IMG/VR virus record: IMGVR_UViG_3300049437_000095
Span: 1-30,130 of that record
Reading direction: 5' to 3' (one strand)
DNA length: 30,130 nucleotides
From: a virus
Lineage: Duplodnaviria; Caudoviricetes
Each line of letters opens with the position of its first letter. Within the stretch, counting starts at the first letter, position 1. Below, piece after piece: positions 4,839-29,758 of this stretch. Below the pieces are notes generated by a model, which was not told where the DNA came from, made no database searches, and saw nothing but the letters and a program-made list of their open reading frames with translations. The translations under genes and the position numbers were made by a program.

Positions 4839-4852
4839 GTTCAGATTGTCGT

Positions 4853-5176: not shown

Positions 5177-5197
5177 GCTTTCTCCTGTGATTGGTGG

Positions 5198-7231: not shown

Positions 7232-7232
7232 G

Positions 7233-8105: not shown

Positions 8106-8116
8106 TCTGATTCTCC

Positions 8117-12678: not shown

Positions 12679-13013
12679 AAAAAATCGACCATTGCCCTCG
12701 CAATCTCGGACTTCGTCATCGATCGGAAGGGATCGTTCGGGTCCACTCCGTTTTTCCGCATGAGAACCCGAGCCCGAGCCCGCTTGAGGAGTGATCCGCC
12801 TTCTGGCCGGAGGATGATCTTCACGAGCTCACCGGCGACACCCCTGCTCATGAGGTCGTCGATGAAGCGGCCATACTGCGTGGCATCGCTGACTCGCTTC
12901 CAGAAATCACCGACAAGAGCCCGGGCCCGCTCGCTCTCTTCCCATGTCAGTTCTCGTTGAATCCACGTGGTTCCCTTGACGTTGTACGTCGTGTAGTCAT
13001 GCATTTGCATCAT
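12528..13013 (-). CDS. tail assembly chaperone G
   Basis: Lies between tail tube and tape measure; contains GAT TTT TTT slippery site. Confidence 0.75.
   Translation of the reverse strand: MMQMHDYTTYNVKGTTWIQRELTWEESERARALVGDFWKRVSDATQYGRFIDDLMSRGVAGELVKIILRPEGGSLLKRARARVLMRKNGVDPNDPFRSMTKSEIARAMVDFFTYSVGWMNVLTGTDANSGSSMTTENLRENISTMTKSFFDSPTATSPGQS
12678..12684 (-). other. programmed -1 ribosomal frameshift heptamer T TTT TTT
   Basis: XXXYYYZ in the correct phase; joins the G frame to the T frame giving about 219 aa. Confidence 0.7.
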
Positions 13014-14191: not shown

Positions 14192-14206
14192 AGTTCGCCT
14201 CGATTC

Positions 14207-14782
14207 TTAGAGAATGTTCGATATCAGGGTCGTGAGCGTGCCGGCCGTTTCAGTCGGAGCTCCGGATCCCGGCGCAGCTCCCTCGATGAGCACATAGTAC
14301 GGGTTGACGGTCGGATCGATGTTGTAGGCAACAGGAGCCCGCGTGACAGTCGTGGCCGCCTTGATCGCAAGAGCTGTGATCGCGATCTCGATGTTCCGCT
14401 CACCCGGCTTGTGGTCCAGCTCGAATCCCGGCGTGATCTTGCAGAGGGGGATGTTCAATTCCTGCACATTGCCGTTCTTCAGCTTGACGTAGTAGTAGGC
14501 CTCGTAGTATTTCCCGTCAGCGTTCTTAAGCAGATTGATCTCATCGATCGTTGTCTGCTTCAGGATGCTCTTGAGTGTGACGTCTTCCCCGCTCGATGCG
14601 TGATCGATGACGAGTCCCTGCTCATCCTTGCTCGTCACCATGTCATGCTTATCGCTGACGGTGGTCCCGCCGAGCCAGCCAGCTTCGGAAAACGCTGCAG
14701 TTGCCGACGGATCCAGCTCGCGGAGCTTAAGGAGTCCGCCGCCTTTGACATTTATTCGTTTACGGTCTTTGCCGAGTGCCAT
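14207..14782 (-). CDS. major tail (tube) protein
   Basis: 191 aa, beta-rich, immediately downstream of the tail terminator; GAAGGGA RBS. Confidence 0.7.
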   Translation of the reverse strand: MALGKDRKRINVKGGGLLKLRELDPSATAAFSEAGWLGGTTVSDKHDMVTSKDEQGLVIDHASSGEDVTLKSILKQTTIDEINLLKNADGKYYEAYYYVKLKNGNVQELNIPLCKITPGFELDHKPGERNIEIAITALAIKAATTVTRAPVAYNIDPTVNPYYVLIEGAAPGSGAPTETAGTLTTLISNIL

Positions 14783-14796
14783 GACAATGTTCCCTT

Positions 14797-15255
14797 CTAT
14801 GTGTCAGAATCATGATGATAAAGCACGGTCAGCAAGACCGTGATGTAACCTACATTCGCTTCGTAATCGAGATCCGGCTCGATGCTCGTGATCTTCAGGG
14901 ACTTCGCTTCCGTGTCAGAGATGAGGGTGTCATCGTTCAGGAGGCATTCCTCAACATCCTCAGAAAGCGAGTCTGCCAGATCTCCGAGGGCGCCATCATC
15001 CGCGGTGTCCATCTTCGCCCGGATGTACCCGACAACGGCGAAGGTGACGTTGACTTCGTACAGAGCTTCCTCCTCAGATGTCGGGCGCTTCGATGTCGGG
15101 CCGAGGAGCACCGACAACTCCGGCGTCGAGGTGACCTTCCCGATATCCTTCAGCTTCTTCGAGACCTTGGCCACGGTGTTTTGATATCCGTTCGAGACTT
15201 TGATCTCGCCGAGCCGTGTGACCAGGTGGTCCCGTATGTCGCGGCGGAATGACAT
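14797..15255 (-). CDS. tail terminator-like protein
   Basis: RRDIRDHLVTRL...NGY N-terminus; acidic; canonical position. Confidence 0.7.
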   Translation of the reverse strand: MSFRRDIRDHLVTRLGEIKVSNGYQNTVAKVSKKLKDIGKVTSTPELSVLLGPTSKRPTSEEEALYEVNVTFAVVGYIRAKMDTADDGALGDLADSLSEDVEECLLNDDTLISDTEAKSLKITSIEPDLDYEANVGYITVLLTVLYHHDSDT

Positions 15256-15881
15256 CAGTTCCTCGCCACCCCCTTCATGAGGTTCTGAATCCGGAGTTTG
15301 AAGATCCTGTTCACGCCATCATGGGTGATTGGATCGGCTATCATCGGCCGCATGAATGGCCGGGCCGGGCGACGGATCGTTTTCCTCATCTTGCCCTTCA
15401 GGAAGAGGGCAAACCACATGTCCCGGGCTTCCGTTGACGTGTCACCACGCGTCTTCCACATCGCATAGAAGAACTTCGTCTGCCGCTCGGTGATGCGGAA
15501 ATCTCCCCCGAACTCGTGCGAGCGGGCATACGGCACGCTCGTGGCGATTTCACCCTGGAAGAGATTGCCAGACTGAGAGATCGTGTGCCTTCCCTCATTC
15601 ATCACACTCGACTTACTCCCCTGAATCTGTCCCATCAGCGATCGGGCGAGTCTGCCCGTGCGGATTGTCAGCATCGATGCATTGATCGGTGTCCAGCGTG
15701 AGGCCTGTGCACCGCCGGTCATGATCATGTGCCGCGATACCGCTGACTGCCCCATGAAATTCAATGCGTCACCCATCGCCTGCGCAATGGTGACCGGAAG
15801 AAGCTCAATCAGCTCATCGGGGAGATTGTTCAGTGAGGCAGGACTGACGTCGACATTGATTCTGACTGGAGCATCGCTCAC
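15255..15881 (-). CDS. HK97 gp10-like / virion morphogenesis neck protein
   Basis: RTGRLARS, VPYARSHEFG, PARPFMRP motifs. Confidence 0.8.
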   Translation of the reverse strand: MSDAPVRINVDVSPASLNNLPDELIELLPVTIAQAMGDALNFMGQSAVSRHMIMTGGAQASRWTPINASMLTIRTGRLARSLMGQIQGSKSSVMNEGRHTISQSGNLFQGEIATSVPYARSHEFGGDFRITERQTKFFYAMWKTRGDTSTEARDMWFALFLKGKMRKTIRRPARPFMRPMIADPITHDGVNRIFKLRIQNLMKGVARN

Positions 15882-16495
15882 GGCGACCTCCAGCGATATC
15901 TGGAAAGTGTGGCTTTGTGCTCCTTTGTCAGGCGGAAGAACGATGTCGAGTCATTCGTCCCGCTCGCACCCATGCCTTTGCTACCCTGCCCGAGCCGGCC
16001 GGATCCCCGGTTGCTCTCTTTGTGGATCTCGCTGACAGCTTCAACCAGTACACGCTCTATGTCCCCGGGGATTGATGAGTAGCCCGCCTTGTACGCGATG
16101 CGAATGTTCTGAAATCCAGCAGGGAAAACGTTGTCGCACAGGACAATGCTAAAGGGAGCATCGGGACGAACGACGACGTAATCCATGTCTGCGACGAGAG
16201 TCTGCCAGGGTGACTTCAGATCGATCCGGTATTGCAGATCGGTCGCCGCAGGAGTGGCCAGGGAGATGATCGGCCGCTTCCTCAGCTGCAGCGCATAGTC
16301 TCCGTCCCCGTCATAGACCTCGGTGAAAGTCTGGGCTTTGACAGGTCCCCCGATGAAACTCTCGATCGCCGACGAGATGCTGTTGATCCACCGCTGCAGG
16401 AAATCATCCTGTGCGTCGTCTCCGTCCTCGATGTTCAGATATTCCTTGACAGCAACGAGTGAGAGAATCGCGTATGTGGCTGCACTGATGGACAT
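15878..16495 (-). CDS. head-tail connector (gp6-like adaptor)
   Basis: VKEYLNI...DDFLQRWI...IESFIG; NIRIAYKAGYSSIPGDI; C-terminal LSRYR. Confidence 0.85.
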   Translation of the reverse strand: MSISAATYAILSLVAVKEYLNIEDGDDAQDDFLQRWINSISSAIESFIGGPVKAQTFTEVYDGDGDYALQLRKRPIISLATPAATDLQYRIDLKSPWQTLVADMDYVVVRPDAPFSIVLCDNVFPAGFQNIRIAYKAGYSSIPGDIERVLVEAVSEIHKESNRGSGRLGQGSKGMGASGTNDSTSFFRLTKEHKATLSRYRWRSP

Positions 16496-16710
16496 CACTT
16501 CACCATGAGTTGACCGGGATGCATCATCTTGTTTGGACCGCTGCCTGGTGAGAACCGAAGATCACCGCACCAGGGGCACACTTCAACCATAATGCCATGA
16601 ACCGTTTTCCGGACTTCCTCGAGCGTCTTCGCGTTGGCATCGCTCAATCTCCTGCCGTCGTACGGGATGAACTCGCACTGATGACCGTCAAGATCACTGG
16701 ACCGGAGCAT
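16495..16710 (-). CDS. small hypothetical phage protein (CPWC motif)
   Basis: Overlaps both neighbours; GGAGGG RBS region; C-terminal NKMM motif often seen in small post-capsid proteins. Confidence 0.55.
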   Translation of the reverse strand: MLRSSDLDGHQCEFIPYDGRRLSDANAKTLEEVRKTVHGIMVEVCPWCGDLRFSPGSGPNKMMHPGQLMVK

Positions 16711-17150: not shown

Positions 17151-17480
17151 TCAAAAGCCCCAGATTCTCCGGGGGATGGTGTTGGCGCTCGACTTCGTCC
17201 GGATGTATCTCGGCGAAGCTCCATAGAGCGTCCATGTCTCGTTCGCCTTGACCGGAATCATCTGCGACCGGGTAGTGTCGTCATGGAAAGCGATCCAGAG
17301 CGTGTCCGTGCCGGCCGTGGTATCGTTCCGGACGACGATGTTGTGGATACCGCTCCGGATGGCAATGCTGTCGAATGTCGTCGTGGATCGCCCGGCACTC
17401 GACGAAATGAAGTGCCCCTGGGCAGTCGCAGTTACTGACATTGCCAAGAAGCAGATGATCACGCAGAAGATGGTTCTCAT
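17151..17480 (-). CDS. signal-peptide protein (109 aa), small beta-sandwich, possible head spike/decoration
   Basis: MRTIFCVIICFLAMSVTATA|Q; GGAAGGGA RBS; second gene after the capsid gene. Confidence 0.7.
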   Translation of the reverse strand: MRTIFCVIICFLAMSVTATAQGHFISSSAGRSTTTFDSIAIRSGIHNIVVRNDTTAGTDTLWIAFHDDTTRSQMIPVKANETWTLYGASPRYIRTKSSANTIPRRIWGF

Positions 17481-17499
17481 GTGGTATCCCTTCCAAACC

Positions 17500-17937
17500 C
17501 TATTTCACAAATCTGATGGTTGCAGTCATCTTCTGCGTGGGAGTTGTCGTATTTCCAGACGAGGCACAGACTGTCCGGAACCTGACATCAATGTATATCC
17601 CGGGGATCTTCTCCGTGGTTGCATCGCGAAGCACCCATTCGGAGTTGGTCGCAGAGGTTGTGGCATTCGTGATCGTAAGGCTATCCTTGACCGTCCAGGT
17701 GCTTGTTCCTTTCACCCGGGTTTCGACATACGTCTTGCCGCTGAAACTATCGGGTGCGGAGATCTGCAGTGCGATGGACCGGTAGGCACCAATCTTGTCG
17801 GGCGCGGTATAGTTGTAGGTCGAGTCATTGGCGTAGTTTGCGTCCTTCAACGTGGACGCTCCCTGTGCGCATGCCATCGATGCGATGAATACGACGAACA
17901 ACGTCAGGAGGATGAATTTCTGAAAGAGCGTTTTCAT
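17500..17937 (-). CDS. signal-peptide protein (145 aa), possible capsid decoration protein
   Basis: MKTLFQKFILLTLFVVFIASMACA|Q; GAAGGA RBS; Thr-rich beta protein directly after the capsid gene. Confidence 0.7.
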   Translation of the reverse strand: MKTLFQKFILLTLFVVFIASMACAQGASTLKDANYANDSTYNYTAPDKIGAYRSIALQISAPDSFSGKTYVETRVKGTSTWTVKDSLTITNATTSATNSEWVLRDATTEKIPGIYIDVRFRTVCASSGNTTTPTQKMTATIRFVK

Positions 17938-17970
17938 GATATTGTGTTCCTTCTCTTGTCGTTTCAAATC

Positions 17971-17994
17971 GGGCCGGGAGGTTAAGCCCGGCCC
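17971..17994 (-). terminator. GC hairpin downstream of the major capsid gene
   Basis: GGGCCGGG-8 nt-CCCGGCCC perfect 8-bp stem; weak U tract, so a partial terminator or stabiliser. Confidence 0.5.
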
Positions 17995-18026
17995 TGTGAT
18001 AGTTCATTCATGGTCTGCGGTACAGA

Positions 18027-19262
18027 TCAGGCCGCTTTCGTCTTCAGGATCGCAATGTTTCCGGGGATCGAAACCACGATACCCCAGCGGGTGTCGATCA
18101 CCAGACCGAGCGACCGTTTCTCCGCGAGGTTGATATTGTTCACGGTACCTTCCGTGAGCACCTGGGAAGTGATCTCCTGGCGCATGCCGTAGTCAACCCA
18201 CTTCAGGTTGCCGAACGCAATCAACGGCGTTGCGGCCTGAGCCGCACCGGTTGCAGCCGTGATCTGTTCATCCAGGACCACGGGGAAGCCGAGCAACATG
18301 CGGGACTTCGCATCCCACGGGTTGACGATGATCGGACGACCCTGATCATCGACCATGGACCCGATCTTCCCGAAGGTCGTGCGATGCATGTACCACTTCG
18401 GCGTTCCACCCGGTCCCGCGAGCTGGCCGTCGCTCAGCGACGTAGCCACCGCGACGAGCTCCTTGTACAGGACATCGTCGAAGTTCGTCGAGGACATGGG
18501 CGTGATCTGGGGGGTGGTCGATCCGAAGATCCCGGTGAACGACTGACCGACAAAGAGCTCCTTGCTCTTGCGGGCATTGAGACCTTCCACGAACAACGCA
18601 ATCAGCTTATCGTAAAGGCCGACGTTGTTGTCCTGGAACACTTCTTTCGACATCACCTGAATGCCGGCGAAAGCCTTTGCGATCAACTGGGGCTTTCCGA
18701 ACTTCGAAGCTGCCTCGGTGATCTGTGCACCTTCATCCACCTGATAGATCAGGGGTTTCGTGGTGACACTGCGCAGGTCGAGCTCGTTGGCCGTCAGCTC
18801 GTGGTAGTCGCAGTCGTTGATGGCGCCATAGTTCTCCATCGCGACCTTGAGGTCAGTGGAAAACTCGGTCGGAACGAGATTCCCGCCGTCCGCGGCCGAT
18901 CCTTCGGACAGAGCCTTCACCGTGACTTCATCACCCAGCTGCTGGGCGCGGAAGAAGCGGATGGTCTTTATTTCCTTCGGGGCTTTCTCGACGGCAAGGG
19001 TGCCTCCACGGACATCGAGTACTGCGGCCTTCAAACGAGCGTGTTTCTCTCCCGCACTCTCGTTTGCCTTCGGACGGTACTTGTCCGCCGGGTCATCGCC
19101 GTCGCCGGGGATCTTGGCCGGAATCGGAGGATCCTGAACGGTATCCAGTTTCAGGTCCTTCTTCAGCTGGTCAACGGCCTTCTGCGCCTGTTCCTCGAGG
19201 GCAGCAGTGAACTGCTCTTCGGTCAGGACGAGATTGCCGTTTGCATCTTTCGTGAACTTCAT
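18027..19262 (-). CDS. major capsid protein, HK97 family
   Basis: ADGGNLVPTEF, VDEGAQI, WYMH, DDQGRPI, LLGFPVV, IAFGNL motifs; N-terminal delta-like domain; GAAAGGA RBS. Confidence 0.95.
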   Translation of the reverse strand: MKFTKDANGNLVLTEEQFTAALEEQAQKAVDQLKKDLKLDTVQDPPIPAKIPGDGDDPADKYRPKANESAGEKHARLKAAVLDVRGGTLAVEKAPKEIKTIRFFRAQQLGDEVTVKALSEGSAADGGNLVPTEFSTDLKVAMENYGAINDCDYHELTANELDLRSVTTKPLIYQVDEGAQITEAASKFGKPQLIAKAFAGIQVMSKEVFQDNNVGLYDKLIALFVEGLNARKSKELFVGQSFTGIFGSTTPQITPMSSTNFDDVLYKELVAVATSLSDGQLAGPGGTPKWYMHRTTFGKIGSMVDDQGRPIIVNPWDAKSRMLLGFPVVLDEQITAATGAAQAATPLIAFGNLKWVDYGMRQEITSQVLTEGTVNNINLAEKRSLGLVIDTRWGIVVSIPGNIAILKTKAA

Positions 19263-19297
19263 GACTCAGTTCCTTTCAAGTCGGCAGTGTTGATAGA

Positions 19298-20368
19298 TCA
19301 GTTGATTTTGCCTTTCAGCCGGCTAACAGCTCCAGTTGCCACTTTGGCCATGAGATCGGAGGCGTCAAATTCTACCTTCTTCTCCTCGGCCGGGCTTCCT
19401 GCTGTCTCCACCGCCGTTGTTGTTTCAGTTCCTTGTGTCTGTTCCGGTGCCGCTGGTTCGGGATCGGCGGGAGGAGGATCCGGTGCACCTTCTTCCCCCG
19501 CAGCGGGAGGATCGGCCGGAGGATCCTCTATCGAGAGATCCTTCACCAACGCTTGCAACAATGTCTTGATTTCCGCGAGCTCGCATGCCATCGGTGAGGC
19601 GCACGACGTGACGGCATCCTTGACACGCTTCTCGAGTTCGCCGTCAGGCAGACTGATTGAATCGCGCCCAACGAGTTCACCGAAAAGGAATTTTCCCCTG
19701 TCGGTTGCGATCGTCCCGTCATCCATCGCTTTTCTGAACATCGCACGCTTTGTGGCGTCCATGTTCATCGGTACTCCGACCTGGGAGTACTCGTGGCACC
19801 CCCACTCTGCGTGATACATGACTCGGTCGTCTTTGTCAAAGTCCTTGATGTTGACGATGTCGAATTTCCCATTGATCAGCTTGAGCAGGCTGTCGATCGT
19901 GATCCACTCCCATGTCGCCAGATCCCATCCAATTGAATATGAGTTCAGATAGTCCTTCGCCGCAAGGCGGAAGATATCGCCGGCAAATGCGTACTCCTCG
20001 ACGGCGTATTGTGTTTTCACCAGTACCCCCTCACGCTTCTTCTTCAGCCAGAGATTCTTGCCGATCGGGAGATCCGTCGGACCATAGGCTCTGTGATTGT
20101 AGAATACCCCCCTGTTCTTCTGCAGAGGTTCATCGTCCACTCCGAACGGATTCATCACGTCCCGGATGTAATCGATGCGGGGAGTCGAGATCAGGTGGAC
20201 GATCGACTTCTCAGTCTCATCGACGGTCTTTGTCTCAACAGTGAAGTCCGAGGCGAGGGTGATCGAATCCTCCGTGCTCTTGACAATCCTCACCCGCGCG
20301 AGGTTCGGAAACTGTGAGTAATACTTTCGGGCTGCCTCGATTGCCTTTTTCCGCTCTTCCGGTGTCAT
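19298..20368 (-). CDS. prohead protease, HK97 family, with acidic Pro-rich C-terminal extension
   Basis: FYNH...LPIGK (His), YSIGW (Ser), EYSQVGVPMN. Confidence 0.88.
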   Translation of the reverse strand: MTPEERKKAIEAARKYYSQFPNLARVRIVKSTEDSITLASDFTVETKTVDETEKSIVHLISTPRIDYIRDVMNPFGVDDEPLQKNRGVFYNHRAYGPTDLPIGKNLWLKKKREGVLVKTQYAVEEYAFAGDIFRLAAKDYLNSYSIGWDLATWEWITIDSLLKLINGKFDIVNIKDFDKDDRVMYHAEWGCHEYSQVGVPMNMDATKRAMFRKAMDDGTIATDRGKFLFGELVGRDSISLPDGELEKRVKDAVTSCASPMACELAEIKTLLQALVKDLSIEDPPADPPAAGEEGAPDPPPADPEPAAPEQTQGTETTTAVETAGSPAEEKKVEFDASDLMAKVATGAVSRLKGKIN

Positions 20369-20380
20369 CCTTGGATTCCT

Positions 20381-22459
20381 TTACTCTGTTGACTTGGGTT
20401 GATACACTACCGTGCACCTGCAATTGATCGTGTTTCCGGGTTTCCCCTGGGGGTCTCCGGGGATATCCAGCATATCGCCGTCGATAAGTTTGAATTTTGC
20501 TTTCAGGTCCACCTGCTGTCCGTCGACGGAAGCGTGCGTATCACGGACCACAGAGTCCCTTTGGCTCAACCAGGTCTTGCCGTCAAACTGCCCGGACTGA
20601 ACGGCCGCAATGGTGTTCCCGGTGTTCAGACTGTAGTTCGAATTCGTGCGAGCGATCCTGACGGCCCGGAAATCCGTCGTGTTATTGAAGAACTCCGATA
20701 CCCGGCCAGCTATGCCATCGATCGTCAGTTGCTCCCGGATGGCCTTGTCCACCACCGCCTTCAGCTCATCGTGAAGCGTCTGCGGGATGGTCTTCGTCTT
20801 TGACGTGAGCTTGCCAATCGCCTCAACGACCTCTGTGCTGTTCGGAGTGAAGACAATCCCATCAATCGAATACTGCCTCTTGAACCGTTCAAACGATTCC
20901 TTGACCATCGCCATGACTTCGGCCTTGATCATGGGATCGAGTTTCCTCAGCCAATCGTCAACATTAAACAGGAAGTCATTACTGTCGAGATCCTTCTGTA
21001 GGGACTTCTTTGAGTTGACCTTCTCGACGACTTCTTTCTGAATTCTCCTGAAGTAGGCCTTCAATTTCACTGACATCCTCCGTTCCCACTTCAATCTCAC
21101 ACGCTCGTGGGCTTTCCAGAAGTCCTTCTTCTCAGTCTCGCTCATCACCTTTGTTCTGCCGAAGGGCATCACTTTCGGTTCATCTGCCGGAGTGACATCA
21201 ACGGAGTCATCAACACCGACCTGCGACAGCGGAACCAGCCCGAACGTCATCAACGGCTCGTCACCACCCACCCACTCGTCCTTGCCATCGCGCCGGCGTA
21301 TCTCGTTGATCGACGTCGTCCCCATGCGCAAATCGGACTCGTCCATCTCAGACTGCAGGCGGATATCCTTCGGGATGACGGACACATGCTGGATGAACAT
21401 CCGCTCGTCGAACTCAGTCTTTGCCAGGTCGAGCGTGAGTTGGGCATCGATAATGGTGAGCTCCGGCTCGATCGTTTCTTTCATGAAGTTGTAGTCGAGC
21501 GTCTCGAGTGTCGCCCGGGCCTGGATGTTCTCCTCGAGCATGAGCTTCGAATCCGGCACTCCGAACACGGACTGGATCTTCTTGTAATTGATGCCGGCCG
21601 ATTCGAGATAGTCGAGCTCCTTCTGATTCACGATGTTCTCGTACTTCGCTCCACCCTCGAGATACCCCGTCTTTCCCGGCTTCCTCTGGAACTTCTCCAG
21701 CCACCGCTGCTCGAACTCTTTTCGGACTTCAGGGCTCAGCTCGTCCGGGAATGTTACGATCCCGGCTGGCGCCGCGTCGTTCTTGAAGAAATCCCGTTGA
21801 TGCTGAGCGATGAACTCAGCGATATCAACCTCGACCGCAGCTTTCATCAGAAGCGATCCGCCGTAGAAGTAGATGTCGTTGGGGTTCGGATGCTTCAGCT
21901 GAACGATATCGTTCTCAGGGATCTCCTGCCTGTTCCCCATCCCCCAGTCGATGATGTACGACTTGATGAGGCCTTCTCCTGCTTTCAGGCTCCCAGGGAC
22001 GATCCGGATTCGTTCGGACGGGAGCGGCCAGAGCTGACGCGGGATATTCAAGCGATCCCGGGCGATCCACCAATACGCATTTCCAGTGAGATCCTTGAAG
22101 GCCTGCGTCAGGTACCAGAGCTCAATCCGGGACATGTAGGGATTCGGATTCTCGAGGAGCTGCACCAGGGGATGATCCATCGGGGCTTCATCGATCACGT
22201 CGTACGATCGCCGGATCTTCACCCTGAAGACTCCGGTTTCAGCGGCCTTCGAGACTTCCTTTGCCCGCACGTGGATACACGCGAAGACCAAGCTCCTGAA
22301 GGCCTTCATCATCTCCCGGGCATCACCCTGTGCGTCAGTCAATCCCTGTCGCCCGATCCGGCCGGATCCCACACCGCCGACATGCGCGATGACCGCCTCC
22401 GGCGAGATCAGCTTTGCCAGTTCCTTCCGGAAGGTCCGTATGGTGTCGCGGAACATCAT
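20381..22459 (-). CDS. portal protein (HK97-like) fused to a MuF/SPP1 gp7-like minor head domain
   Basis: VFACI, HPL..LL..PNPYMS, LTGNAYW, LWPLP, FFKNDAAP, VFGVP, SINEIR; C-terminal RIART, KTWLSQRD..VR.TH..VDG, PGD...INCRC. Confidence 0.93.
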   Translation of the reverse strand: MMFRDTIRTFRKELAKLISPEAVIAHVGGVGSGRIGRQGLTDAQGDAREMMKAFRSLVFACIHVRAKEVSKAAETGVFRVKIRRSYDVIDEAPMDHPLVQLLENPNPYMSRIELWYLTQAFKDLTGNAYWWIARDRLNIPRQLWPLPSERIRIVPGSLKAGEGLIKSYIIDWGMGNRQEIPENDIVQLKHPNPNDIYFYGGSLLMKAAVEVDIAEFIAQHQRDFFKNDAAPAGIVTFPDELSPEVRKEFEQRWLEKFQRKPGKTGYLEGGAKYENIVNQKELDYLESAGINYKKIQSVFGVPDSKLMLEENIQARATLETLDYNFMKETIEPELTIIDAQLTLDLAKTEFDERMFIQHVSVIPKDIRLQSEMDESDLRMGTTSINEIRRRDGKDEWVGGDEPLMTFGLVPLSQVGVDDSVDVTPADEPKVMPFGRTKVMSETEKKDFWKAHERVRLKWERRMSVKLKAYFRRIQKEVVEKVNSKKSLQKDLDSNDFLFNVDDWLRKLDPMIKAEVMAMVKESFERFKRQYSIDGIVFTPNSTEVVEAIGKLTSKTKTIPQTLHDELKAVVDKAIREQLTIDGIAGRVSEFFNNTTDFRAVRIARTNSNYSLNTGNTIAAVQSGQFDGKTWLSQRDSVVRDTHASVDGQQVDLKAKFKLIDGDMLDIPGDPQGKPGNTINCRCTVVYQPKSTE

Positions 22460-22944
22460 GCCAGGCCAAGCCTCGTCCGTTCATCGTTGATCTGAGCAAC
22501 GAGCCTGTCCGGGACTGACTTCCCCTGCAGCTCGCGGAGTGTCCTCTGCACGTACAGATGCGCCAGACGCCGTTGCCCGGGTGGTGCGTCGTAGGATTCA
22601 GCACCCGAAGCAGGCAGATATGCGCCGCGTTTGAACTTCATCAGGATCTCCGTCGTCGATGCCCGGGGGAATTTCGCAGAGTCCAGATAGACATCTACCG
22701 TTGGGTAGTTCGGAGCATACGCGCACTCCACCGCGGCCGGGGACTCCAGGAGTGCGAGCAACTCCGCATCCGTCTTCTTCACCCCCGTTACTGGGGAAAA
22801 GTCGTCAGGATCCTTTCCCGTGTCAGCCGCCTGAACCAGGATAATCCTTTTGATCCTGCGGCTCGTCAGGTCGAAGCGGAGAATGTAACCGCTTGTCCCT
22901 GTGGCGATGACGGTTCCGGTAAGTGCCGATGCTCCGAATGCCAT
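22456..22944 (-). CDS. hypothetical phage protein (162 aa)
   Basis: GAAAGG RBS; overlaps the portal start. Confidence 0.7.
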   Translation of the reverse strand: MAFGASALTGTVIATGTSGYILRFDLTSRRIKRIILVQAADTGKDPDDFSPVTGVKKTDAELLALLESPAAVECAYAPNYPTVDVYLDSAKFPRASTTEILMKFKRGAYLPASGAESYDAPPGQRRLAHLYVQRTLRELQGKSVPDRLVAQINDERTRLGLA

Positions 22945-23016
22945 GAAACAAACCTTTCGTTTAATTCAGCGGGCTGTGAGTTCACCCGCCGTTGTTTTCT
23001 CGTACCGTTCAGCGCA

Positions 23017-23106
23017 TCACGACAGAATCCGAACGGCCCCGCGCTTTCTCATCCGGCCTATGTCTTTCCGCTCACTCGGCTTAGGATGTCCGAACCGGAC
23101 AGACAT
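23017..23106 (-). CDS. possible 29-aa basic peptide MSVRFGHPKPSERKDIGRMRKRGAVRILS
   Basis: AAGGAG 7 nt upstream of the ATG; the ATG lies inside a 7-bp stem. Confidence 0.3.
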   Translation of the reverse strand: MSVRFGHPKPSERKDIGRMRKRGAVRILS

Positions 23107-23150
23107 CCCGACACTCCTTTTCCGTTACTTGCGCGAGTCATCTGTGGAGA

Positions 23151-23534
23151 TTATTTCTTTGATGAATTGAAGCTATCAGCACCGAGTCCGATGTAGAACA
23201 CGGCGAGCCAGCTTCCGAGCGTCACCGGGTATAGGCCACCGTTGCCCACCTGCGAATAGATGGCCCAGATGGACGCGACACCCGCGATCGTCGTACCAAT
23301 GGTGAGACCGATATTCGTGAAGAACCAACTGCCGAAGCTGTTCTGCACCGAGTCCTCTTTCCATTTCTTCGCCCAATGGACAAGGACACCGAGGGCGTAG
23401 GGTACAAAGAGAATTATCGGGAACATTGCCGACGGAGCTTCGTCTCCCTGCGCGAGGGCCATGGTGACCATGAAAGCAGTGATGATGAGCAGCAGCAGAA
23501 GCCGAATGGGCGTTGACAGCGAAAGACGTTTCAT
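23151..23534 (-). CDS. holin-like membrane protein with N-terminal signal peptide
   Basis: AAGGAG RBS; MKRL...TMALA|Q followed by three hydrophobic segments (LGVLVHWAKK..., ...GLGADSFN). Confidence 0.65.
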   Translation of the reverse strand: MKRLSLSTPIRLLLLLIITAFMVTMALAQGDEAPSAMFPIILFVPYALGVLVHWAKKWKEDSVQNSFGSWFFTNIGLTIGTTIAGVASIWAIYSQVGNGGLYPVTLGSWLAVFYIGLGADSFNSSKK

Positions 23535-23555
23535 CGAAATCTCCTTTGTGATTGG

Positions 23556-23792
23556 TTAATGTATGCGTGTAACAATCTTTTCGACAATTGCCCAGATGAC
23601 GGCGACAGCTCCCCCGATTCCCACGAGGGCGTAGAGGCCCTTCTCCAGTCGACGCAGGCGCTTCTCGTGATCCAGTCCCCGATCGTCAGCCGCCTTCGTA
23701 TCTTCCTCCCGCATCCGAAACAGTGTCTTCATCTGTTCTTCGATCCGGGCGACAGATTCACCGATCTGTTGAAGTGTCATTCCGTGTTCCAT
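23556..23792 (-). CDS. XhlA/holin-like coiled-coil protein with one C-terminal TM
   Basis: VARIEE, DHEKRLRRLEK, followed by a hydrophobic segment; AAGGA RBS. Confidence 0.7.
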   Translation of the reverse strand: MEHGMTLQQIGESVARIEEQMKTLFRMREEDTKAADDRGLDHEKRLRRLEKGLYALVGIGGAVAVIWAIVEKIVTRIH

Positions 23793-23819
23793 GGGGGTTC
23801 CTTATTAACGGATTGATCG

Positions 23820-26800
23820 TCAGTGCTTTGGTTCGTATTTGATATCGTCCACCGAAATACCCACCGCTCCGATGTAGCTCGTGTTCACCGGCGTGATATT
23901 CCCGAGCGTGAACACTCCCATTCCGTGATTACAGACGGTTCCGAGCGTCGGGAGACTCCACGTTGCGGTGAGCTTCAATACGTCGTCGACGTAGAAGAGG
24001 AAGCTGCTCGCCGTTGTGACGATCTTCAGGTCGTATTCGCCCCCGAGCGTCGGGAGGGAAACCCCTACCCGGCTCACCGTGGTTGAGTCACACCATTCCG
24101 CGAACAGGCTGTCCGTGTTGACGAACATCGAGTCACGACCACCCCAGGCGAATCCCACTCTTGGCACGTATGCCGGCAGTGTGTCCACGGCGTTCGATAT
24201 CGGCCCCCTGAACTTGCCTACAAAGAATTTGTTTGAATCCCTCGATGTCGGCATGATGAAATTCACAAATTCGAGCGTGTCCGGTTCCCTCATCAAGAAG
24301 CCGGCGCGTAGCGCTCCTGATGCACCTGTCGACATCCACCCTCCGGATATGAGCCCTGGTCCGACTTGTGGCGCGATCGCTATTCGTCCGCGGCGTCCGG
24401 CATCCCTGGGGTAGACCGGGGGCGGATTTCCGAAATAGATCGCCGGGTTCGCTCCGCCCATTCTGTTTCCTGTAATTCCGAAGGGATCATCTATCCCGGT
24501 GAACTGTGTGGCGTCGTTTGTGTTGCTGTTGATGCCCTTGATGAATCGAGCAATGTATCCCTGCCGTTCGTACACGGTGACGGATCCTCCTGCCGGCGCC
24601 TTCATCCCGGTCGTGTCGACGAAGGTCACGGTTCCATCTCCGTTGTTCACCGCAAATGTCCCCGCCGTCCCCGTTGCGTACATGGCGTCAAACGGAAGAA
24701 CGGACTTGTTCAGCTCTCCGGCGATGTTCTCGCTGGTGACGCTGTTCGGTCCTAGGCTGATGATGCCGTCTGAAATGTCGAAGGCTCCTCCTCCGCGCAC
24801 GCTCCCAAACGTGGTATTGGTTGCTCTCCGGACCGATCCCGTGAATGTCCCGCCGCTCAAAGTCCACGAAAAGGCCTCACCGTCTGCGAGGTACGCTTGG
24901 GATGAAGAAAGCGTCCCGTCTGATGCCAGGCCCAGCGTGAAAATGGACGATACCACCTGCCCGGCGTCTGTGATGAATCCCCCTGAGAACTGTCTCCACT
25001 TCCCAGCGGCCGGCGTTCCTGTTTGTGCCGATGTCCGGATATTCCAATCGACATAATCCGCTGCCGTCATCGTTCCTACCACCCCGTTCCTCTTCACAAG
25101 GAAGGCGAGAGGCTGAGACTGTCCTCCTGTTGTGTCGGCCGGCACGTATACCCTGATGGCGTTCGATATCGTTGCTACTCCGCCGTCCCCGTTTGTCATC
25201 GTGACGTTCCGGTATCCCGTCGCGGCCGCTCCGTCAACAACGATGGATGCTGCCCACCTTGTGCTGTCCGCCGTGAATACTCCGGCGACAAATGAGATTC
25301 CAGACGGCGAAAATGCCAGGCTCACCAGGGATCCGCTCTTGAAGTGATTACCCTGGACCTGTACCGAGACGGTCTGTCCCCTCCGGACGCTGTCCGGTAC
25401 AAAGATCGTGATTGCAGGAGCGTCGGTGATGGCCAGCCCACCGACCAGCGTGTCCCTCTGTCCGTCCGCGTTCGTCACGTATACGGTCCGATTGCCTGTC
25501 GCTGCAGCGCCGCTCACCGTCAGGCTCGTTGTCAGCTGTGTCGTGCTGTTGAAGGTCGTAGCGTTCACGGTGATCCCGGTCCCCGAGAACGTAATGGCTG
25601 CCCCGGCCTGGAATCCTGAACCCGCCCATACCACTGAAAAATTGCCGGCCCCCTGTCCGACCTTGTTTGGACTGCCGCTTGAAAGTTCCGGCTTTGCAAT
25701 CGATGCCGTCACCGTAAACGACACGGTATTTGACGAGATGCCCGCGTTCTGAACGTTGACCGTCTTTGTTCCGGCCGTCGCTATGTCTGATGCCAGAATC
25801 GCCGCTCGAAGGTTCCCCGAATTGATGAACGTCGTCACCTTGTATGTGCCGTTGAAAATGACGCTGTCTCCCGCGTGGAAGTTCAGCCCATACACGTCGA
25901 GATTGAATCCGGCGCCTCCCGCCGTGGCGGTCGATGGCGTCGTGCTGTTGATCTGTCTCTGTGTCGTGTCCGTGAAGGAAATCAAGGCATTCTTCACGTA
26001 CTCATACATCCTGTGTGGTCTCGTGTACGTGGAAGGCAGGCTTCCCTCTCCCATGTCCCAGGCTCCGAAGTTCACCGATTCTGCAAGGGCCACTTGCACA
26101 AATCTCCGGATCGATATGCTGTCGGCAAAGACGAGGACGCTGTCCGGTACGTTGTACGGTGTCGTGTCCGTCTGGATGATCTCCGGATGATACATCTCGA
26201 TGTATGCTGCGTATCCCGCCAGGCTGTCATGCTTGACTGTCCCCAGCTGTTCCGCCCTCTGGATGTAGCGCGGATACATCTGGTAGAAATTCTCATCTCC
26301 CTGGACCGAAGGCGCCGTACTCCACCGCTGTCGAATGCTCCATACTCCGTTTGTCGGATCCGCGGCGTTCCCACTCGAGCTTCTATACAGCGCTCCGTTG
26401 AAATCGTAGAAGGCGTTAAGTTTGTACGTCGGCCAGCCCAGCGTCTTTGCCTTCTTGATGAATTTGTGGACCGATGGCAGGAGGTCATTGATCACCGGCC
26501 GCAGGTTGTACGACGGAATGTTCCCGGCGCTGTCGTATGTGGTCGGACACGACGTGTGCCACACGAGGTTCTGCCATGTTCCGGCCTGGTCGTAACTTCC
26601 CAGGTTGTAGTAATCGATGCAGGTGTCCATCCCTCCGCCCTGGAAGGCGTTGAAAAGTCCGTCTGAATAAATGAAGGCCGTAATCAAACAGCGCTTTGTC
26701 GGATCGTTGTATCTCGTAAACGTGTTCATCGTGTCCTTGAGGATCCGGACGAATCTCTGCATGTTCGCTACGTTCAGTCCGCTCTCGAGGTCGATGTCGA

Positions 26801-28220
26801 ATCCGTCGTAGTGATAATTCTGCATGAACAGTTTGATGTTGTGGCACAGGTTCTGCGTTGCCACCAGGTCGTTTTGTGCTGTTGCGAATTCCGTGTTCGT
26901 GGATCCGCCTGCCAGAAACAAGATCTGCTTTCCTCGAGCATGGAGGTAATCGTTCAGCAGCGTGGTCCTTCCCGAGGCTCCGAGCATGCTGCCAAGGTTC
27001 AGCGTTCCGTCCGCCGATACGGATCCGCCGAATGCGATGTAGACGTCCGCGAGGTTCCAATCGAACGTCGCCACATTTATCATGCCTCCATTCGTTCCTC
27101 CGAGGCCGCTCATGTTCAGCTGTCCGCCATACAGGTAGTACCAAATCTGCCGGCTACCGTAGGTAATTCCCCCGCCCCCTCCTCCTCCACCCCCGGTGGA
27201 TGGCGCATTGATCGTGATGCTCTTGCTTCCCGTTGCTGGATCGTTTGCCGTGGCTCCGCTATCGTCTGCCGTCTCTGCCCTGAACGTGTGCGACCCGGCA
27301 GTGTGCCATGTGTAGTATTTCGTGAATGCCAGCGACGTCCCGGTGAGGCCCACCGCCTCTGTGTCGAGTACTCCGTCGTAATACAGGCGGACGTAATTCA
27401 GGCCGGCTCCAGGCGGGCCGTCCGATGCCGTCACGGTAATTCCCACCGGCGTTCCCGTGTCCCCTTGTGCCGGCACCGTCACGGTAATGCTGGGAGGCGA
27501 GTTCAATTGCGCTCCGATCGTTGCCGTGTAGAAATCGTCCCACCTGGTGTTCGTGCTGTCGTTCGCTCCCAGGCTTGCGTAGAATCCACTTGTTAGCTGG
27601 TTGACCAGGACGGTGTTCGTGTCCGTTGCCACCCCGAGGCTGTCCCTGGTCCCGCTCACCCTCCACCGGTGGACCGATGCCTGGAAAGGATAAAAGCTCA
27701 GCATTCTTATGACGAGCGTGTCTCCGGTCTGGAATGTGGTAGCTCCTGTCGGCAATGAAAAGGCCGCGTACCCTACTGAGCCTACGCTGGTGATCATGGC
27801 CCGGTAGTACATACGGATCTGGTGTGCTGTCCCGCTCAGGTTCCCGCGGAATGTAAAGCCTCCGCTCAGCTGTGCCGGTGTCTTTGTCGGGGTAAGCGTG
27901 AGCAATATTGGCGCCCGGCCCGAAAGCCATGTCCCTGGGTTTGCCACCCTCAGACGGAATTCCGTCAGGCTTGTCATCTGGCTGTCCCAAAGGCTGTAAT
28001 TCATCCCGGACGTCGTGAGGCTGGCCGTTGCTGAATTGCTGGTGATCCTCATCGGCGCCGCTGCTCCAAGAGCCACCCACTTCCTTTGCCCTGTTAGCGC
28101 GGTCGTGTCCGCCCTGTTGAAGTCATCGCGGATCTGTCCGATCGCGTTGCTCGTTACGATTGCTGCCACCAAAACGAACAAAAGGCCGAGAACGGCCAGG
28201 CATCCTTTTTGTCTCATCAT
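23820..28220 (-). CDS. secreted-type multidomain protein (1466 aa): signal peptide, Ig-like domain, GH18 glycoside hydrolase, three IPT/TIG-like domains, fibre-like C-terminal region
   Basis: MMRQKGCLAVLGLLFVLVAAIVTSNAIG|Q; DGFDIDLE (DxxDxDxE) at 26807-26784; LAGGS; GSYD; IPT-like repeats (V.G.NF, G.R.V.VTN.DG); RATNTTFGSVRGGGAFDISDGIIS fibre motif. Confidence 0.85.
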   Translation of the reverse strand: MMRQKGCLAVLGLLFVLVAAIVTSNAIGQIRDDFNRADTTALTGQRKWVALGAAAPMRITSNSATASLTTSGMNYSLWDSQMTSLTEFRLRVANPGTWLSGRAPILLTLTPTKTPAQLSGGFTFRGNLSGTAHQIRMYYRAMITSVGSVGYAAFSLPTGATTFQTGDTLVIRMLSFYPFQASVHRWRVSGTRDSLGVATDTNTVLVNQLTSGFYASLGANDSTNTRWDDFYTATIGAQLNSPPSITVTVPAQGDTGTPVGITVTASDGPPGAGLNYVRLYYDGVLDTEAVGLTGTSLAFTKYYTWHTAGSHTFRAETADDSGATANDPATGSKSITINAPSTGGGGGGGGGITYGSRQIWYYLYGGQLNMSGLGGTNGGMINVATFDWNLADVYIAFGGSVSADGTLNLGSMLGASGRTTLLNDYLHARGKQILFLAGGSTNTEFATAQNDLVATQNLCHNIKLFMQNYHYDGFDIDLESGLNVANMQRFVRILKDTMNTFTRYNDPTKRCLITAFIYSDGLFNAFQGGGMDTCIDYYNLGSYDQAGTWQNLVWHTSCPTTYDSAGNIPSYNLRPVINDLLPSVHKFIKKAKTLGWPTYKLNAFYDFNGALYRSSSGNAADPTNGVWSIRQRWSTAPSVQGDENFYQMYPRYIQRAEQLGTVKHDSLAGYAAYIEMYHPEIIQTDTTPYNVPDSVLVFADSISIRRFVQVALAESVNFGAWDMGEGSLPSTYTRPHRMYEYVKNALISFTDTTQRQINSTTPSTATAGGAGFNLDVYGLNFHAGDSVIFNGTYKVTTFINSGNLRAAILASDIATAGTKTVNVQNAGISSNTVSFTVTASIAKPELSSGSPNKVGQGAGNFSVVWAGSGFQAGAAITFSGTGITVNATTFNSTTQLTTSLTVSGAAATGNRTVYVTNADGQRDTLVGGLAITDAPAITIFVPDSVRRGQTVSVQVQGNHFKSGSLVSLAFSPSGISFVAGVFTADSTRWAASIVVDGAAATGYRNVTMTNGDGGVATISNAIRVYVPADTTGGQSQPLAFLVKRNGVVGTMTAADYVDWNIRTSAQTGTPAAGKWRQFSGGFITDAGQVVSSIFTLGLASDGTLSSSQAYLADGEAFSWTLSGGTFTGSVRRATNTTFGSVRGGGAFDISDGIISLGPNSVTSENIAGELNKSVLPFDAMYATGTAGTFAVNNGDGTVTFVDTTGMKAPAGGSVTVYERQGYIARFIKGINSNTNDATQFTGIDDPFGITGNRMGGANPAIYFGNPPPVYPRDAGRRGRIAIAPQVGPGLISGGWMSTGASGALRAGFLMREPDTLEFVNFIMPTSRDSNKFFVGKFRGPISNAVDTLPAYVPRVGFAWGGRDSMFVNTDSLFAEWCDSTTVSRVGVSLPTLGGEYDLKIVTTASSFLFYVDDVLKLTATWSLPTLGTVCNHGMGVFTLGNITPVNTSYIGAVGISVDDIKYEPKH

Positions 28221-28224
28221 GTGT

Positions 28225-29229
28225 TTATCTCACCAGGCCTGTGACTGTTATGGGATCGTCTTCCGTTGAGTAAAACTGGACGATGACGCTGTCCGTCTTT
28301 GCCGTAACCACCGGCATCGCTATTGGCGTTGCCGTCCCTCCGATTGCCGATGCCACCTTCATGCTGCTCGTTACCCCCGGAACGTATACCGCTACCCTCT
28401 GTGTGGTTCCTGCCGGCACCGTCGCTGTGAACGTGTAGACCGGCGTCAAGCTCGTATTAATCGACCAGGCGGATCCGCTCCAATATGCCGAGCCCGGCGT
28501 CGCTCCTGGCACGAGCTCGTTCGGCGCCGACGTTCCGTTTCCCACCGGAATGCCGTTCGTTGTCCACGTCGATCTCCCGGACCCCCCTCGAGGTACCCCG
28601 AGTATTCCACCCGTGAGATCGGCCGTGTTGTGCGTATGATTCAGAAGGGCTCGAAGCGTGAGGTCGTACTTTGTGGCCACCTCCGTTGAGTCTCCGACGA
28701 GCGTTAACGCACCAAGCGTCCCGGAGGCGTTCACTCCCCACGTCGCTGTCACAGGAGTCGACTTATCGACTTTCAGCGAGATATCGAATTGTGTCGCGAA
28801 GTAGAGCAGCGTATCAGCGACGAGTGTGAGGTTGTGCCCGTTGATCGACCATGTGAGTATCGCGTTGCTGATCAGCTGCACGCTGTCCCTGATCTGCGGG
28901 AATCCGGAAACGTTGATCGTGAATGTCGTGTCACCTGTGCCCGATCCGCCGCCTCCGCCAGTTCCGACGCTGTCGAGGTTGGACTCTGACCCGTTCCCGT
29001 AGATCATGTAGCACTTACCCGGACCAGGTATCCAGAGAATGGCGGTGTTCGCGATCGGGGCAGGTTTCGTTGCACTGTAGACCAGGACCACCTTTGTTGC
29101 TCGAAGCATTCTGCCGGCGACAATCGTGTCGCGCCGGATGTAGCTGCCCTGCGAGCATGCCTCGCTCGTCAAGAGCAGTGACATCAACGCGAGGATGAAT
29201 AGGGCGGTCATTCCCCCGAATCGTTTCAT
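28225..29229 (-). CDS. signal-peptide-bearing tail-fibre-like protein (334 aa)
   Basis: MKRFGGMTALFILALMSLLLTSEACS|Q; Gly hinge; NHTHNTADLTGGILGVPRGGSG fibre motif. Confidence 0.75.
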   Translation of the reverse strand: MKRFGGMTALFILALMSLLLTSEACSQGSYIRRDTIVAGRMLRATKVVLVYSATKPAPIANTAILWIPGPGKCYMIYGNGSESNLDSVGTGGGGGSGTGDTTFTINVSGFPQIRDSVQLISNAILTWSINGHNLTLVADTLLYFATQFDISLKVDKSTPVTATWGVNASGTLGALTLVGDSTEVATKYDLTLRALLNHTHNTADLTGGILGVPRGGSGRSTWTTNGIPVGNGTSAPNELVPGATPGSAYWSGSAWSINTSLTPVYTFTATVPAGTTQRVAVYVPGVTSSMKVASAIGGTATPIAMPVVTAKTDSVIVQFYSTEDDPITVTGLVR

Positions 29230-29654: not shown

Positions 29655-29670
29655 TCTTCCCCGTTGTTAA

Positions 29671-29706
29671 ATAAAAAAGGCCTGTCTGACTGCCGGCAGA
29701 CAGGCC
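29671..29706 (-). terminator. intrinsic terminator directly upstream of the first structural-operon gene
   Basis: GGCCTGTCTG-8 nt-CAGACAGGCC perfect 10-bp stem followed by TTTTTTAT on the minus strand. Confidence 0.85.
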
Positions 29707-29758
29707 CTTCACCTAACCACACATCCCGCTTCAAGGAGGATATGCTATGACGGGCAAG

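What the first reader, a model, noticed from the sequence alone, without database searches (positions are those of the whole stretch)
17151..29229. Phage structural operon with five Sec-signal, Q-rule proteins: possible extracytoplasmic virion decoration system
Seen: five genes embedded in, and tightly spaced with, the morphogenesis operon start with a basic n-region and a hydrophobic h-region, and end ATA|Q (17480), ACA|Q (17937), ALA|Q (23534), AIG|Q (28220) and ACS|Q (29229). The core parts (portal, capsid, tube, TMP, the two distal fibres) have none. Known: Gln at +1 after signal peptidase I cleavage, cyclised to pyroglutamate, is the Bacteroidetes Q-rule, and tailed virions normally assemble entirely in the cytoplasm. 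Inference: decoration and fibre subunits are exported to the periplasm, processed by host SPase I and glutaminyl cyclase, and docked onto particles at or after lysis. The alternative is that they act on the host envelope during late infection.
Basis: partly seen in the sequence, partly recalled or inferred. Interest (0 to 1): 0.9.

Follow-up and report, generated by a model that had tools for sequence, protein, structure and literature searches.

The report
Exported, sugar-tagged phage head proteins
Five late genes of this tailed prophage start with host-type secretion leaders, and the one beside the capsid gene belongs to a large unnamed family that keeps its leader and the host's sugar-attachment motif, so these proteins are likely exported and glycosylated outside the cytoplasm and would then probably coat the particle at lysis, a route I found in no paper on tailed phages.

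Summary
Observation confirmed: exactly 5 of 29 late genes carry a Sec-type leader with Gln at +1 (my own rule; SignalP was not available). The five are not alike. 23151-23534 is a 3-TM membrane protein beside a holin-like gene; 23820-28220 is a GH18/Ig chimera; 28225-29229 is only weakly fibre-like; 17151-17480 is an orphan.

The strong case is 17500-17937, a single jelly-roll. Searched with mature parts only, its family has 264 clusters: 137 of the best 150 pass the leader rule and 130 have Gln +1. In 11 of 11 loci with context it lies within one gene of the capsid gene, across unrelated heads including a satellite-like element.

It is 3.7-fold enriched in the four soluble proteins (35 vs 9.3), not in the other 25 (22 vs 24), and forms the family's most conserved columns.

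Best reading (0.55): exported, host-glycosylated accessories that dock on particles at lysis. Docking is untested. The nearest fold, PBSX XepA, is exported but absent from virions. Leader-bearing virion proteins of Cellulophaga phi10:1 exist but are motif-poor. The scan noted this pattern before on other DNA.

The parts
17500..17937 (-). S145: 24-aa leader (ACA|Q) plus a 121-aa eight-strand single jelly-roll, first gene after the major capsid protein. Founding member of an unnamed exported head-module family with about three conserved D-S/T sites; candidate glycosylated capsid accessory
   Evidence: pLDDT 66; XepA Z 10.9
17151..17480 (-). S109: 20-aa leader (ATA|Q) plus an 89-aa all-beta orphan with 4 O-glycosylation motifs (0.5 expected). 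A terminator-like hairpin lies at its 3' end (17174-17158)
   Evidence: model too poor to use (pLDDT 43); no relatives found; not a member of the S145 family
23151..23534 (-). S127: leader (ALA|Q) followed by three hydrophobic helices; integral membrane protein, probably part of a lysis/export cassette; not a decoration
23556..23792 (-). 78-aa coiled coil with C-terminal TM, holin-like (no leader)
   Evidence: phrog_689 holin E 0.006, phrog_5225 E 1.5e-6; TM
23820..28220 (-). S1466: leader (AIG|Q), beta domain, Ig (Big_7), GH18 with intact DxxDxDxE motif at 472-479, probable IPT-like Ig repeats, C-terminal region of unknown fold (fibre/lectin-like by eye only); 22 O-glycosylation motifs (6.5 expected); 6 Cys in the mature chain
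28225..29229 (-). S334: leader (ACS|Q), Gly/Thr-rich, weakly fibre-like; 7 motifs (1.5 expected)
   Evidence: Atlas 0.91 to a viral hypothetical cluster; E 0.07 to minor tail proteins
18027..19262 (-). HK97-fold major capsid protein, leaderless
19298..22459 (-). prohead protease (19298-20368) and portal-MuF fusion (20381-22459), leaderless
4395..16498 (-). leaderless neck, two tube paralogues (one with LamG), chaperones, tape measure, distal tail/fibre-type genes and DUF5675; internal control with no motif enrichment
29675..29710 (-). 14-pair hairpin with U-tract just upstream of the first operon gene (29226-29654); either the terminator of the upstream gene or a late-operon attenuator
   Evidence: overall hairpin count is at chance level: 17 vs 13.9

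Best explanation
The late operon of this siphovirus-like prophage encodes four soluble proteins with Sec-type leaders ending at Gln and an excess of D-S/T-hydrophobic motifs; they are likely exported by the host, likely cleaved, pyroglutamylated and O-glycosylated in the periplasm, and at least the jelly-roll protein encoded beside the capsid gene would probably bind finished particles when lysis mixes periplasm and cytoplasm. Shown: the leaders, their conservation, the motif excess and its conservation, the gene order, a predicted jelly-roll fold and an intact GH18 motif. Inferred: Sec export and SPase I cleavage (about 0.93); glycosylation by the host's general Bacteroidota O-glycosylation system (about 0.8); docking on the capsid as a dispensable outer coat (about 0.55-0.6). 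The likely purpose of the detour is to obtain the host glycan, which is available only beyond the inner membrane, giving a stabilised, host-like particle surface. S1466 and S334 would be glycan-binding or glycan-trimming appendages or co-released helpers (less certain). S127 stays in the membrane with the holin-like protein.
For: 1) Leaders on 5 of 29 genes, none on core parts. 2) A profile of mature parts only found 264 clusters at E<=0.001 among 1.84 billion representatives. Of the best 150, 137 pass the leader rule and 130 have Gln +1. Of the 13 failures, by eye 8 show the end of a leader at small-residue|Q, 3 are N-terminal fragments, 1 is a 4999-aa repeat protein and 1 (P0076) shows no leader. 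3) Motif D[ST][AILVMT]: 35 observed vs 9.3 expected in the four soluble chains (Poisson p 1e-10), 22 vs 24.1 in the other 25. E-, N- and G-S/T and reversed controls gave ratios of 0.7-1.2. Family: 397 vs 104.6, and 143 of 149 have three or more extended motifs (related sequences, not independent). D-T (92/97%) and D-S (99/74%) are among the most conserved columns. The motif is glycosylated only on non-cytoplasmic proteins (PMC12871550, PMC8729774, passages). 4) Gene order, 11 of 11 loci with context: directly after the capsid gene in 6, one small gene away in 3, directly before a protease-capsid fusion in 2. The capsids are about 21-46% identical across head types, including lambda-like heads and an integrase-primase-capsid element where I saw no portal. 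5) Single jelly-roll fold. 6) Precedent: Cellulophaga phi10:1 gp091-094 and phi18:3 gp087 are annotated as virion proteins by MS/MS and carry leader+Gln. 7) The nearest named capsid relatives are in Bacteroidota and Ignavibacteria MAGs; 16 of 33 leader-bearing proteins of the Bacteroidota MAG have Gln +1.
Against: No virion, expression or binding data. The top fold match, XepA, is reported exported but absent from mature PBSX particles (PMC6834076 passages), and its Z 10.9 is tied with an unrelated jelly-roll (YPM 10.2), so the fold is generic. The MS-detected phi10:1 proteins are motif-poor (5 vs 10.9): glycosylation is not a general feature of leader-bearing virion proteins, and motif richness could mark periplasmic residents instead. 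In the host proxy, leader-bearing proteins are enriched only 1.6-1.75-fold and leaderless ones 1.29-fold, so the host contrast is modest. I tested the motif after seeing the invariant Asp. The gene is accessory: absent from L001 (capsid 48% identical) and present in only 2 of 30 capsid loci. Sitting beside the capsid gene may only secure high expression. The family weakly matches a 591-aa host protein (L159, E 7e-5). S109, S334 and S1466 have no full-length relatives to test. The actual host is unknown and no terminase is in the window, so the element may be defective or cut short.
Confidence: 0.55

Rival explanations
1. Late envelope-acting proteins (XepA-like). They are exported and glycosylated but work in the periplasm or at the surface of the infected cell (helping lysis, masking receptors, blocking superinfection or re-adsorption to debris) and never join the particle; the gene sits by the capsid gene for high late expression.
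For: XepA is the best fold match and is exported yet absent from particles. Three of the five genes lie in a cassette with a holin-like gene and a 3-TM protein. Glycoproteins of this system are mostly periplasmic or membrane residents. The known virion-borne leader proteins are motif-poor.
Against: XepA lies in a lysis cassette, whereas S145 relatives stay in the head module in 11 of 11 loci, on either side of the capsid gene, and are kept by a satellite-like element where I identified only a capsid and a neck-like gene. S145 has no membrane anchor or lipobox.
Confidence: 0.28
2. Lysogenic-conversion cargo (morons) captured from the host secretome and expressed in the lysogen to alter the cell surface or degrade GlcNAc polymers.
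For: S1466 has a host-like GH18 plus Ig architecture (best PDB match 3co4, E 9e-8). Q-rule cargo genes in P. gingivalis phages were read this way (PMC10367356). S109, S334 and S1466 are orphans.
Against: All five are co-oriented and tightly spaced with late genes. The promoter scan found no consensus promoter in front of any of them (weak test). S145 is a phage-linked family, not a host family.
Confidence: 0.09
3. The leaders are uncleaved anchors or are bypassed (internal starts), so the proteins are membrane-tethered assembly aids or ordinary cytoplasmic decorations.
For: SignalP was not run. One database calls S334 from Met7.
Against: Conserved small-residue|Q junction in 130 of 150 relatives. 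Even from Met7 the h-region and junction remain. Selection for a periplasm-only motif would be pointless in the cytoplasm.
Confidence: 0.04
4. Exported S145 polymerises by itself (filament or surface lattice, like other jelly-roll appendage subunits) or decorates membrane vesicles that carry particles.
For: Ena appendage subunits appear among the fold matches (Z 8.2-8.7).
Against: Those Z values are at the level of common folds, and nothing else points this way.
Confidence: 0.04

Closest known systems
PBSX XepA and SPbeta YomS (PDB 6i56, 6i5o; PMC6834076, passages read)
   Same: Late phage jelly-roll proteins; XepA is exported; authors propose transient capsid-vertex binding. S145 model aligns at Z 10.9, rmsd 2.3 over 101 residues (YomS Z 8.2).
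   Different: No sequence match (no Pfam hit; 14% identity). XepA has two domains, lies in the lysis cassette of a monoderm host and is reported absent from particles. S145 has a cleavable-type leader, Gln +1, glycosylation motifs and head-module position; its oligomer state is untested.
Leader-bearing virion proteins of Cellulophaga phages phi10:1 (gp091-094, KC821618) and phi18:3 (gp087, KC821620)
   Same: Leader plus Gln +1, in late operons of tailed Bacteroidota phages; annotated from virion MS/MS (GenBank notes; the source paper was not read).
   Different: Tail-module fibre/lyase types, motif-poor (5 vs 10.9; 1 vs 3.0), no S145-family match in the fetched regions; the records do not remark on export.
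Q-rule proteins of Porphyromonas gingivalis Nixviridae phages (PMC10367356, passages read)
   Same: Phage genes with SPI leaders obeying the Q-rule (five genes of unknown function).
   Different: Read as outer-membrane-modifying cargo; no link to capsid, fold or glycosylation in the passages seen.
Capsid decoration/cement proteins (lambda gpD, T4 Hoc/Soc, BPP-1 cement; recalled, partly via PMC6834076) and HFTV1 turrets (PMC12494034, passages)
   Same: Small accessory genes beside the capsid gene, often dispensable, some with jelly-roll folds or glycan-acting heads.
   Different: Made and bound in the cytoplasm with no leader (recalled; the HFTV1 text has no mention of signal peptides); no Pfam/PHROG match to any of them.
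General protein O-glycosylation and Q-rule of Bacteroidota (PMC12871550, PMC8729774, PMC5837995; passages read)
   Same: Acceptor motif D-S/T-A/I/L/V/M/T and Gln +1 on exported proteins; I. album Q-value 77%.
   Different: Described for host proteins only; 'phage' does not occur in the two glycosylation papers' main text.
Glycosylated mycobacteriophage virions (Freeman 2023, seen only as cited in PMC12619734)
   Same: Glycans on tailed-phage particles.
   Different: Capsid and tail-tube C-termini are modified (by phage-encoded enzymes, recalled); no export. No glycosyltransferase was found in this window.

Membership tests
Bacteroidota Sec/SPI Q-rule substrate | n/h/c leader with small residues at -3/-1 and Gln at +1 | tested here: met
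   own rule and by eye, 5 of 5; 130 of 150 relatives; SignalP not available
Bacteroidota Sec/SPI Q-rule substrate | cleavage and pyroglutamate shown; host has glutaminyl cyclase | not testable with these tools
   host genome not held; proxy MAG follows the Q-rule (16 of 33)
Bacteroidota O-glycoprotein | D-S/T-hydrophobic motifs in an exported chain | tested here: met
   35 vs 9.3; 397 vs 104.6
Bacteroidota O-glycoprotein | glycan present on Ser/Thr | not testable with these tools
   needs glycoproteomics
XepA/YomS | single jelly-roll domain fold | tested here: met
   Z 10.9, rmsd 2.3, 101 aligned; tied with YPM; model pLDDT 66
XepA/YomS | sequence profile match | tested here: not met
   no PDB sequence hit up to E 10; no relevant Pfam hit for 16 members (this Pfam copy may predate the XepA model)
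XepA/YomS | homopentamer | not tested
Capsid decoration protein | encoded in the head module beside the capsid gene | tested here: met
   11 of 11 loci
Capsid decoration protein | binds the capsid surface and is present in virions | not testable with these tools
   no structure or proteome; complex prediction unavailable
Capsid decoration protein | cytoplasmic, leaderless synthesis (as in the known families, recalled) | tested here: not met
   leader conserved across the family
GH18 glycoside hydrolase (S1466 domain) | Pfam PF00704 above cut-off and DxxDxDxE motif | tested here: met
   46.8 bits vs 29.6 cut-off; motif at 472-479
Phage tail fibre (S334, S1466 C-terminus) | profile or structure match to trimeric fibres | tested here: inconclusive
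   no Pfam/PHROG hit; Atlas 0.91 to an unnamed viral cluster, TM <=0.33; tblastn E 0.07 for S334, none for S1466 C-terminus
Holin (S127) | small multi-TM protein in a lysis cassette | tested here: inconclusive
   3 TM, beside a weak holin hit, but no family match

The most novel reading that the evidence does not exclude
Tailed phages of Ignavibacteria-like Bacteroidota have a dedicated, widespread capsid-coat family (264 or more clusters) that is routed through Sec to be pyroglutamylated and O-glycosylated at three conserved sites by the host, then docks on finished heads at lysis. This would give virions a host-glycan coat by a two-compartment assembly pathway, portable between unrelated head modules and even to satellites.
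Probability: 0.5. Interest if true: 0.9.

Novelty: categorically new. Interest (0 to 1): 0.75.

Why it matters
Tailed-phage particles are taken to be built wholly in the cytoplasm. A virion part that matures in the periplasm, picks up the host's own O-glycan and joins at lysis would add a second compartment to Caudoviricetes assembly and a way to make glyco-coated particles without phage glycosyltransferases. This family makes the question directly testable: a 121-aa soluble domain, three conserved Ser/Thr acceptors, a predicted N-terminus and a known partner gene. It also offers small natural substrates for finding the still unknown Bacteroidota oligosaccharyltransferase (unknown per PMC12871550). 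If the envelope-acting rival is right, it is still a new exported late-protein family, of moderate interest.

Tried and rejected
- Viral-contig scans with the capsid, S145, portal, A1 and A3 found no relatives; only the narrower alignment A6 did (4 loci).
- tblastn of S145, S109 and the S1466 C-terminus against cultured phages: no match.
- S109: no match in 201 genomes or in 172 fetched loci; its single-sequence model (pLDDT 43) was not used for a fold search; it is not an S145 paralogue.
- Pfam, PHROG and PDB-sequence searches name no family for S145.
- Weak genome hits to the S145 profile were left out of the 11-locus count. G390/L159 was looked at and is a 591-aa host protein. G258, G022 and G382 and G536 and G036 were not examined; only L159 of these scored again.
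- Context is unknown for most of the 264 clusters, and only 150 were listed.
- Promoter and terminator counts are at chance level (4 vs 7.2; 17 vs 13.9).
- 'All five are decorations' was rejected because S127 has three TM helices.
- 'Export always serves glycosylation' was rejected because the phi10:1 proteins are motif-poor.
- Paper searches listed no paper describing Sec-exported or host-O-glycosylated virion parts of tailed phages. I saw listings and abstract starts; passages only for PMC10367356, PMC5837995, PMC6834076, PMC12494034, PMC12871550, PMC8729774, PMC12619734 and PMC12014285 (nothing relevant in the last). The library lacks most subscription papers, and no supplements were opened; those of PMC10367356 and the Cellulophaga proteomes may bear on novelty.


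Full report
Setting. The window is a single virus record. The same capsid and S145 proteins also occur on a 238,355-base contig, so it is probably a prophage cut from a host contig. From 29654 down to about 4037 the minus strand holds one late operon: a six-gene front cassette, portal-MuF, protease, HK97 capsid, two small genes, connectors, two tube paralogues, chaperones, tape measure, distal tail genes and DUF5675. No terminase was found among 33 proteins; the relative L001 has one directly before the portal. The nearest named capsid relatives lie in a 'Bacteroidota bacterium' MAG (48%) and an Ignavibacteria MAG (28%). The true host is not known.

Observation. The five leaders are real. On 220 kb of the Bacteroidota MAG the rule flagged 33 of 158 ORFs, 16 with Gln, fitting the Q-rule, which also holds in Ignavibacterium album (77%; PMC5837995 passages). 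SignalP was not available.

The five are different things. S127 (23151-23534) has three TM helices after the leader and sits beside a holin-like 78-aa gene, so it is a membrane protein. S1466 has an Ig domain, a GH18 domain above the Pfam cut-off with an intact catalytic motif, and ends of unknown fold. S334 resembles an unnamed viral cluster (Atlas 0.91) and very weakly minor tail proteins (E 0.07); its HxH fibre-like motif is my recollection, not a database result. S109 is an all-beta orphan.

S145 defines a family. Starting from mature parts only, so that the leader could not bias the search, I collected 24 distinct members: 24 have a hydrophobic leader and 21 have Gln +1. A 16-sequence mature profile then found 264 clusters at E<=0.001 and 139 at 1e-10 among 1.84 billion representatives. 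Of the 150 listed, 137 pass the rule (run with a looser -3 set) and 130 have Gln. Of 13 failures, 8 show a truncated or weak leader ending small-residue|Q, 3 are fragments, one is a 4999-aa repeat protein and one lacks a visible leader.

Gene context is known for 11 loci, with L024/L025 counted once. The gene is directly after the capsid gene in six (window, L023, L024/5, L119, L155, L147/149), one small gene away in three (L148/151, L166, L169), and between portal and protease-capsid fusion in two (L167, L168), which also have a paralogue after the terminase. These capsids are about 21-46% identical across head types and include lambda-like heads and an integrase-excisionase-primase element with a capsid and a neck-like gene, where I saw no portal. 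The gene is accessory: L001 lacks it, and only 2 of 30 capsid loci fetched have it nearby. Weak hits left out of the count are listed under Tried and rejected.

Fold. AlphaFold2 on four sequences gives an eight-strand sandwich (pLDDT 66, pTM 0.59). The best match among 48,161 chains is PBSX XepA (Z 10.9, rmsd 2.3, 101 residues), tied with YPM (10.2), with YomS at 8.2. Foldseek adds lambda gpJ domains and small uncharacterised Caudovirales proteins. It is a generic single jelly-roll. XepA is reported exported during development and absent from mature particles, though its authors propose transient vertex binding (PMC6834076 passages). This cuts both ways.

The second signature. The invariant Asp in the alignment lies in D-S/T-hydrophobic, the acceptor of the Bacteroidota general O-glycosylation system, which acts only beyond the cytoplasm (PMC12871550, PMC8729774 passages). 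The four soluble chains carry 35 such motifs against 9.3 from shuffles (p 1e-10); the other 25 chains carry 22 against 24.1; four control patterns give 0.7-1.2. In the family: 397 against 104.6, three or more extended motifs in 143 of 149, and D-T and D-S among the most conserved columns (related sequences, so not independent). Four leader-bearing proteins of related prophages gave 12 against 3.9 and five leaderless tail proteins 11 against 14.5 (hand-picked). Against: the host proxy shows only 1.6-1.75-fold in leader-bearing and 1.29-fold in leaderless ORFs, and the test was chosen after seeing the alignment.

Precedent. Following the scan's earlier notes, I checked Cellulophaga phages. phi10:1 gp091-094 and phi18:3 gp087 are annotated from virion MS/MS and carry leader+Gln (5 of 17 and 1 of 10 genes tested had leaders). 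So leader-bearing proteins do turn up in purified tailed virions, though co-purification is not excluded. They are motif-poor (5 vs 10.9), so export need not serve glycosylation. Q-rule genes were also noted in P. gingivalis phages and read as envelope cargo (PMC10367356 passages).

Mechanism. Most likely: late transcription; Sec export; SPase I cleavage and pyroGlu formation; host O-glycosylation; accumulation in the periplasm; lysis brings the proteins to finished particles, where S145 oligomers (perhaps with S109, which ends before a terminator-like hairpin) dock as an optional coat. Export and modification are inferred from two independent sequence signatures. Docking is inferred only from gene order, fold and precedent (0.55). 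The main rival is XepA-like action in the envelope (0.28), then lysogen cargo (0.09). Binding and expression could not be tested.

Novelty. Nine paper searches listed no description of Sec-exported or host-glycosylated virion parts of tailed phages; the library is incomplete. The scan itself recorded the leader and motif pattern on other genomes, mostly for fibres (30 notes), and nothing like S145 by sequence. Those notes are not evidence. What this locus adds is a defined, widespread head-module family in which leader, Gln and three acceptor motifs are the conserved features. It works like a decoration protein but fails the leaderless criterion of known ones, and shares a fold, but no sequence, with XepA.

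Noticed in passing
window 22456-30130: No terminase in the record. The usual place before the portal holds a 162-aa unknown and the export/lysis cassette. The element may be cut short, rearranged, defective or helper-dependent.
   Followed up: partly
L149:6588-14388 (G306): Satellite-like element: integrase, excisionase, neck1-like gene, primase-helicase, capsid protein and an S145-family gene; I saw no portal or tail.
   Followed up: partly
window 13010-14782: Two tandem tail-tube paralogues (43% over 138 aa), the second fused to a LamG domain; same pair in L025, single copy in L001.
   Followed up: no
L001:19911-21059; L154:883-2059: Related prophages carry other leader+Gln, motif-rich genes at the tail end (a fibre-like 382-aa protein, phrog_24159 E 7e-5; 126-aa and 269-aa proteins).
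   Followed up: partly
L167:2809-3264; L168:1324-1758: Second, diverged S145 paralogue between terminase and head-tail joining gene, with a leader but no Gln +1 and four motifs.
   Followed up: partly
P0057: Tandem duplication of the S145 domain behind one leader (275 aa).
   Followed up: no
L120-L146: Many genomes of the class hold short, similar capsid-adaptor clusters interrupted by host-like genes; possibly a domesticated or decayed element.
   Followed up: no
window 2438-3472 and 8-2411: SDH/ClpP-like protease, DUF4145 protein and a methylase-Mrr fusion beyond the tail genes; likely cargo or defence genes at the prophage edge.
   Followed up: no
window 29675-29790: Strong 14-pair hairpin with U-tract about 20 bases before the first late gene, with an AT-rich stretch upstream; could be a lambda tR'-like attenuator (by eye).
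   Followed up: no
L159:1195-2970 (G390): A 591-aa host protein has an N-terminal domain weakly matching the S145 profile (E about 1e-4); possible host origin of the family.
   Followed up: partly
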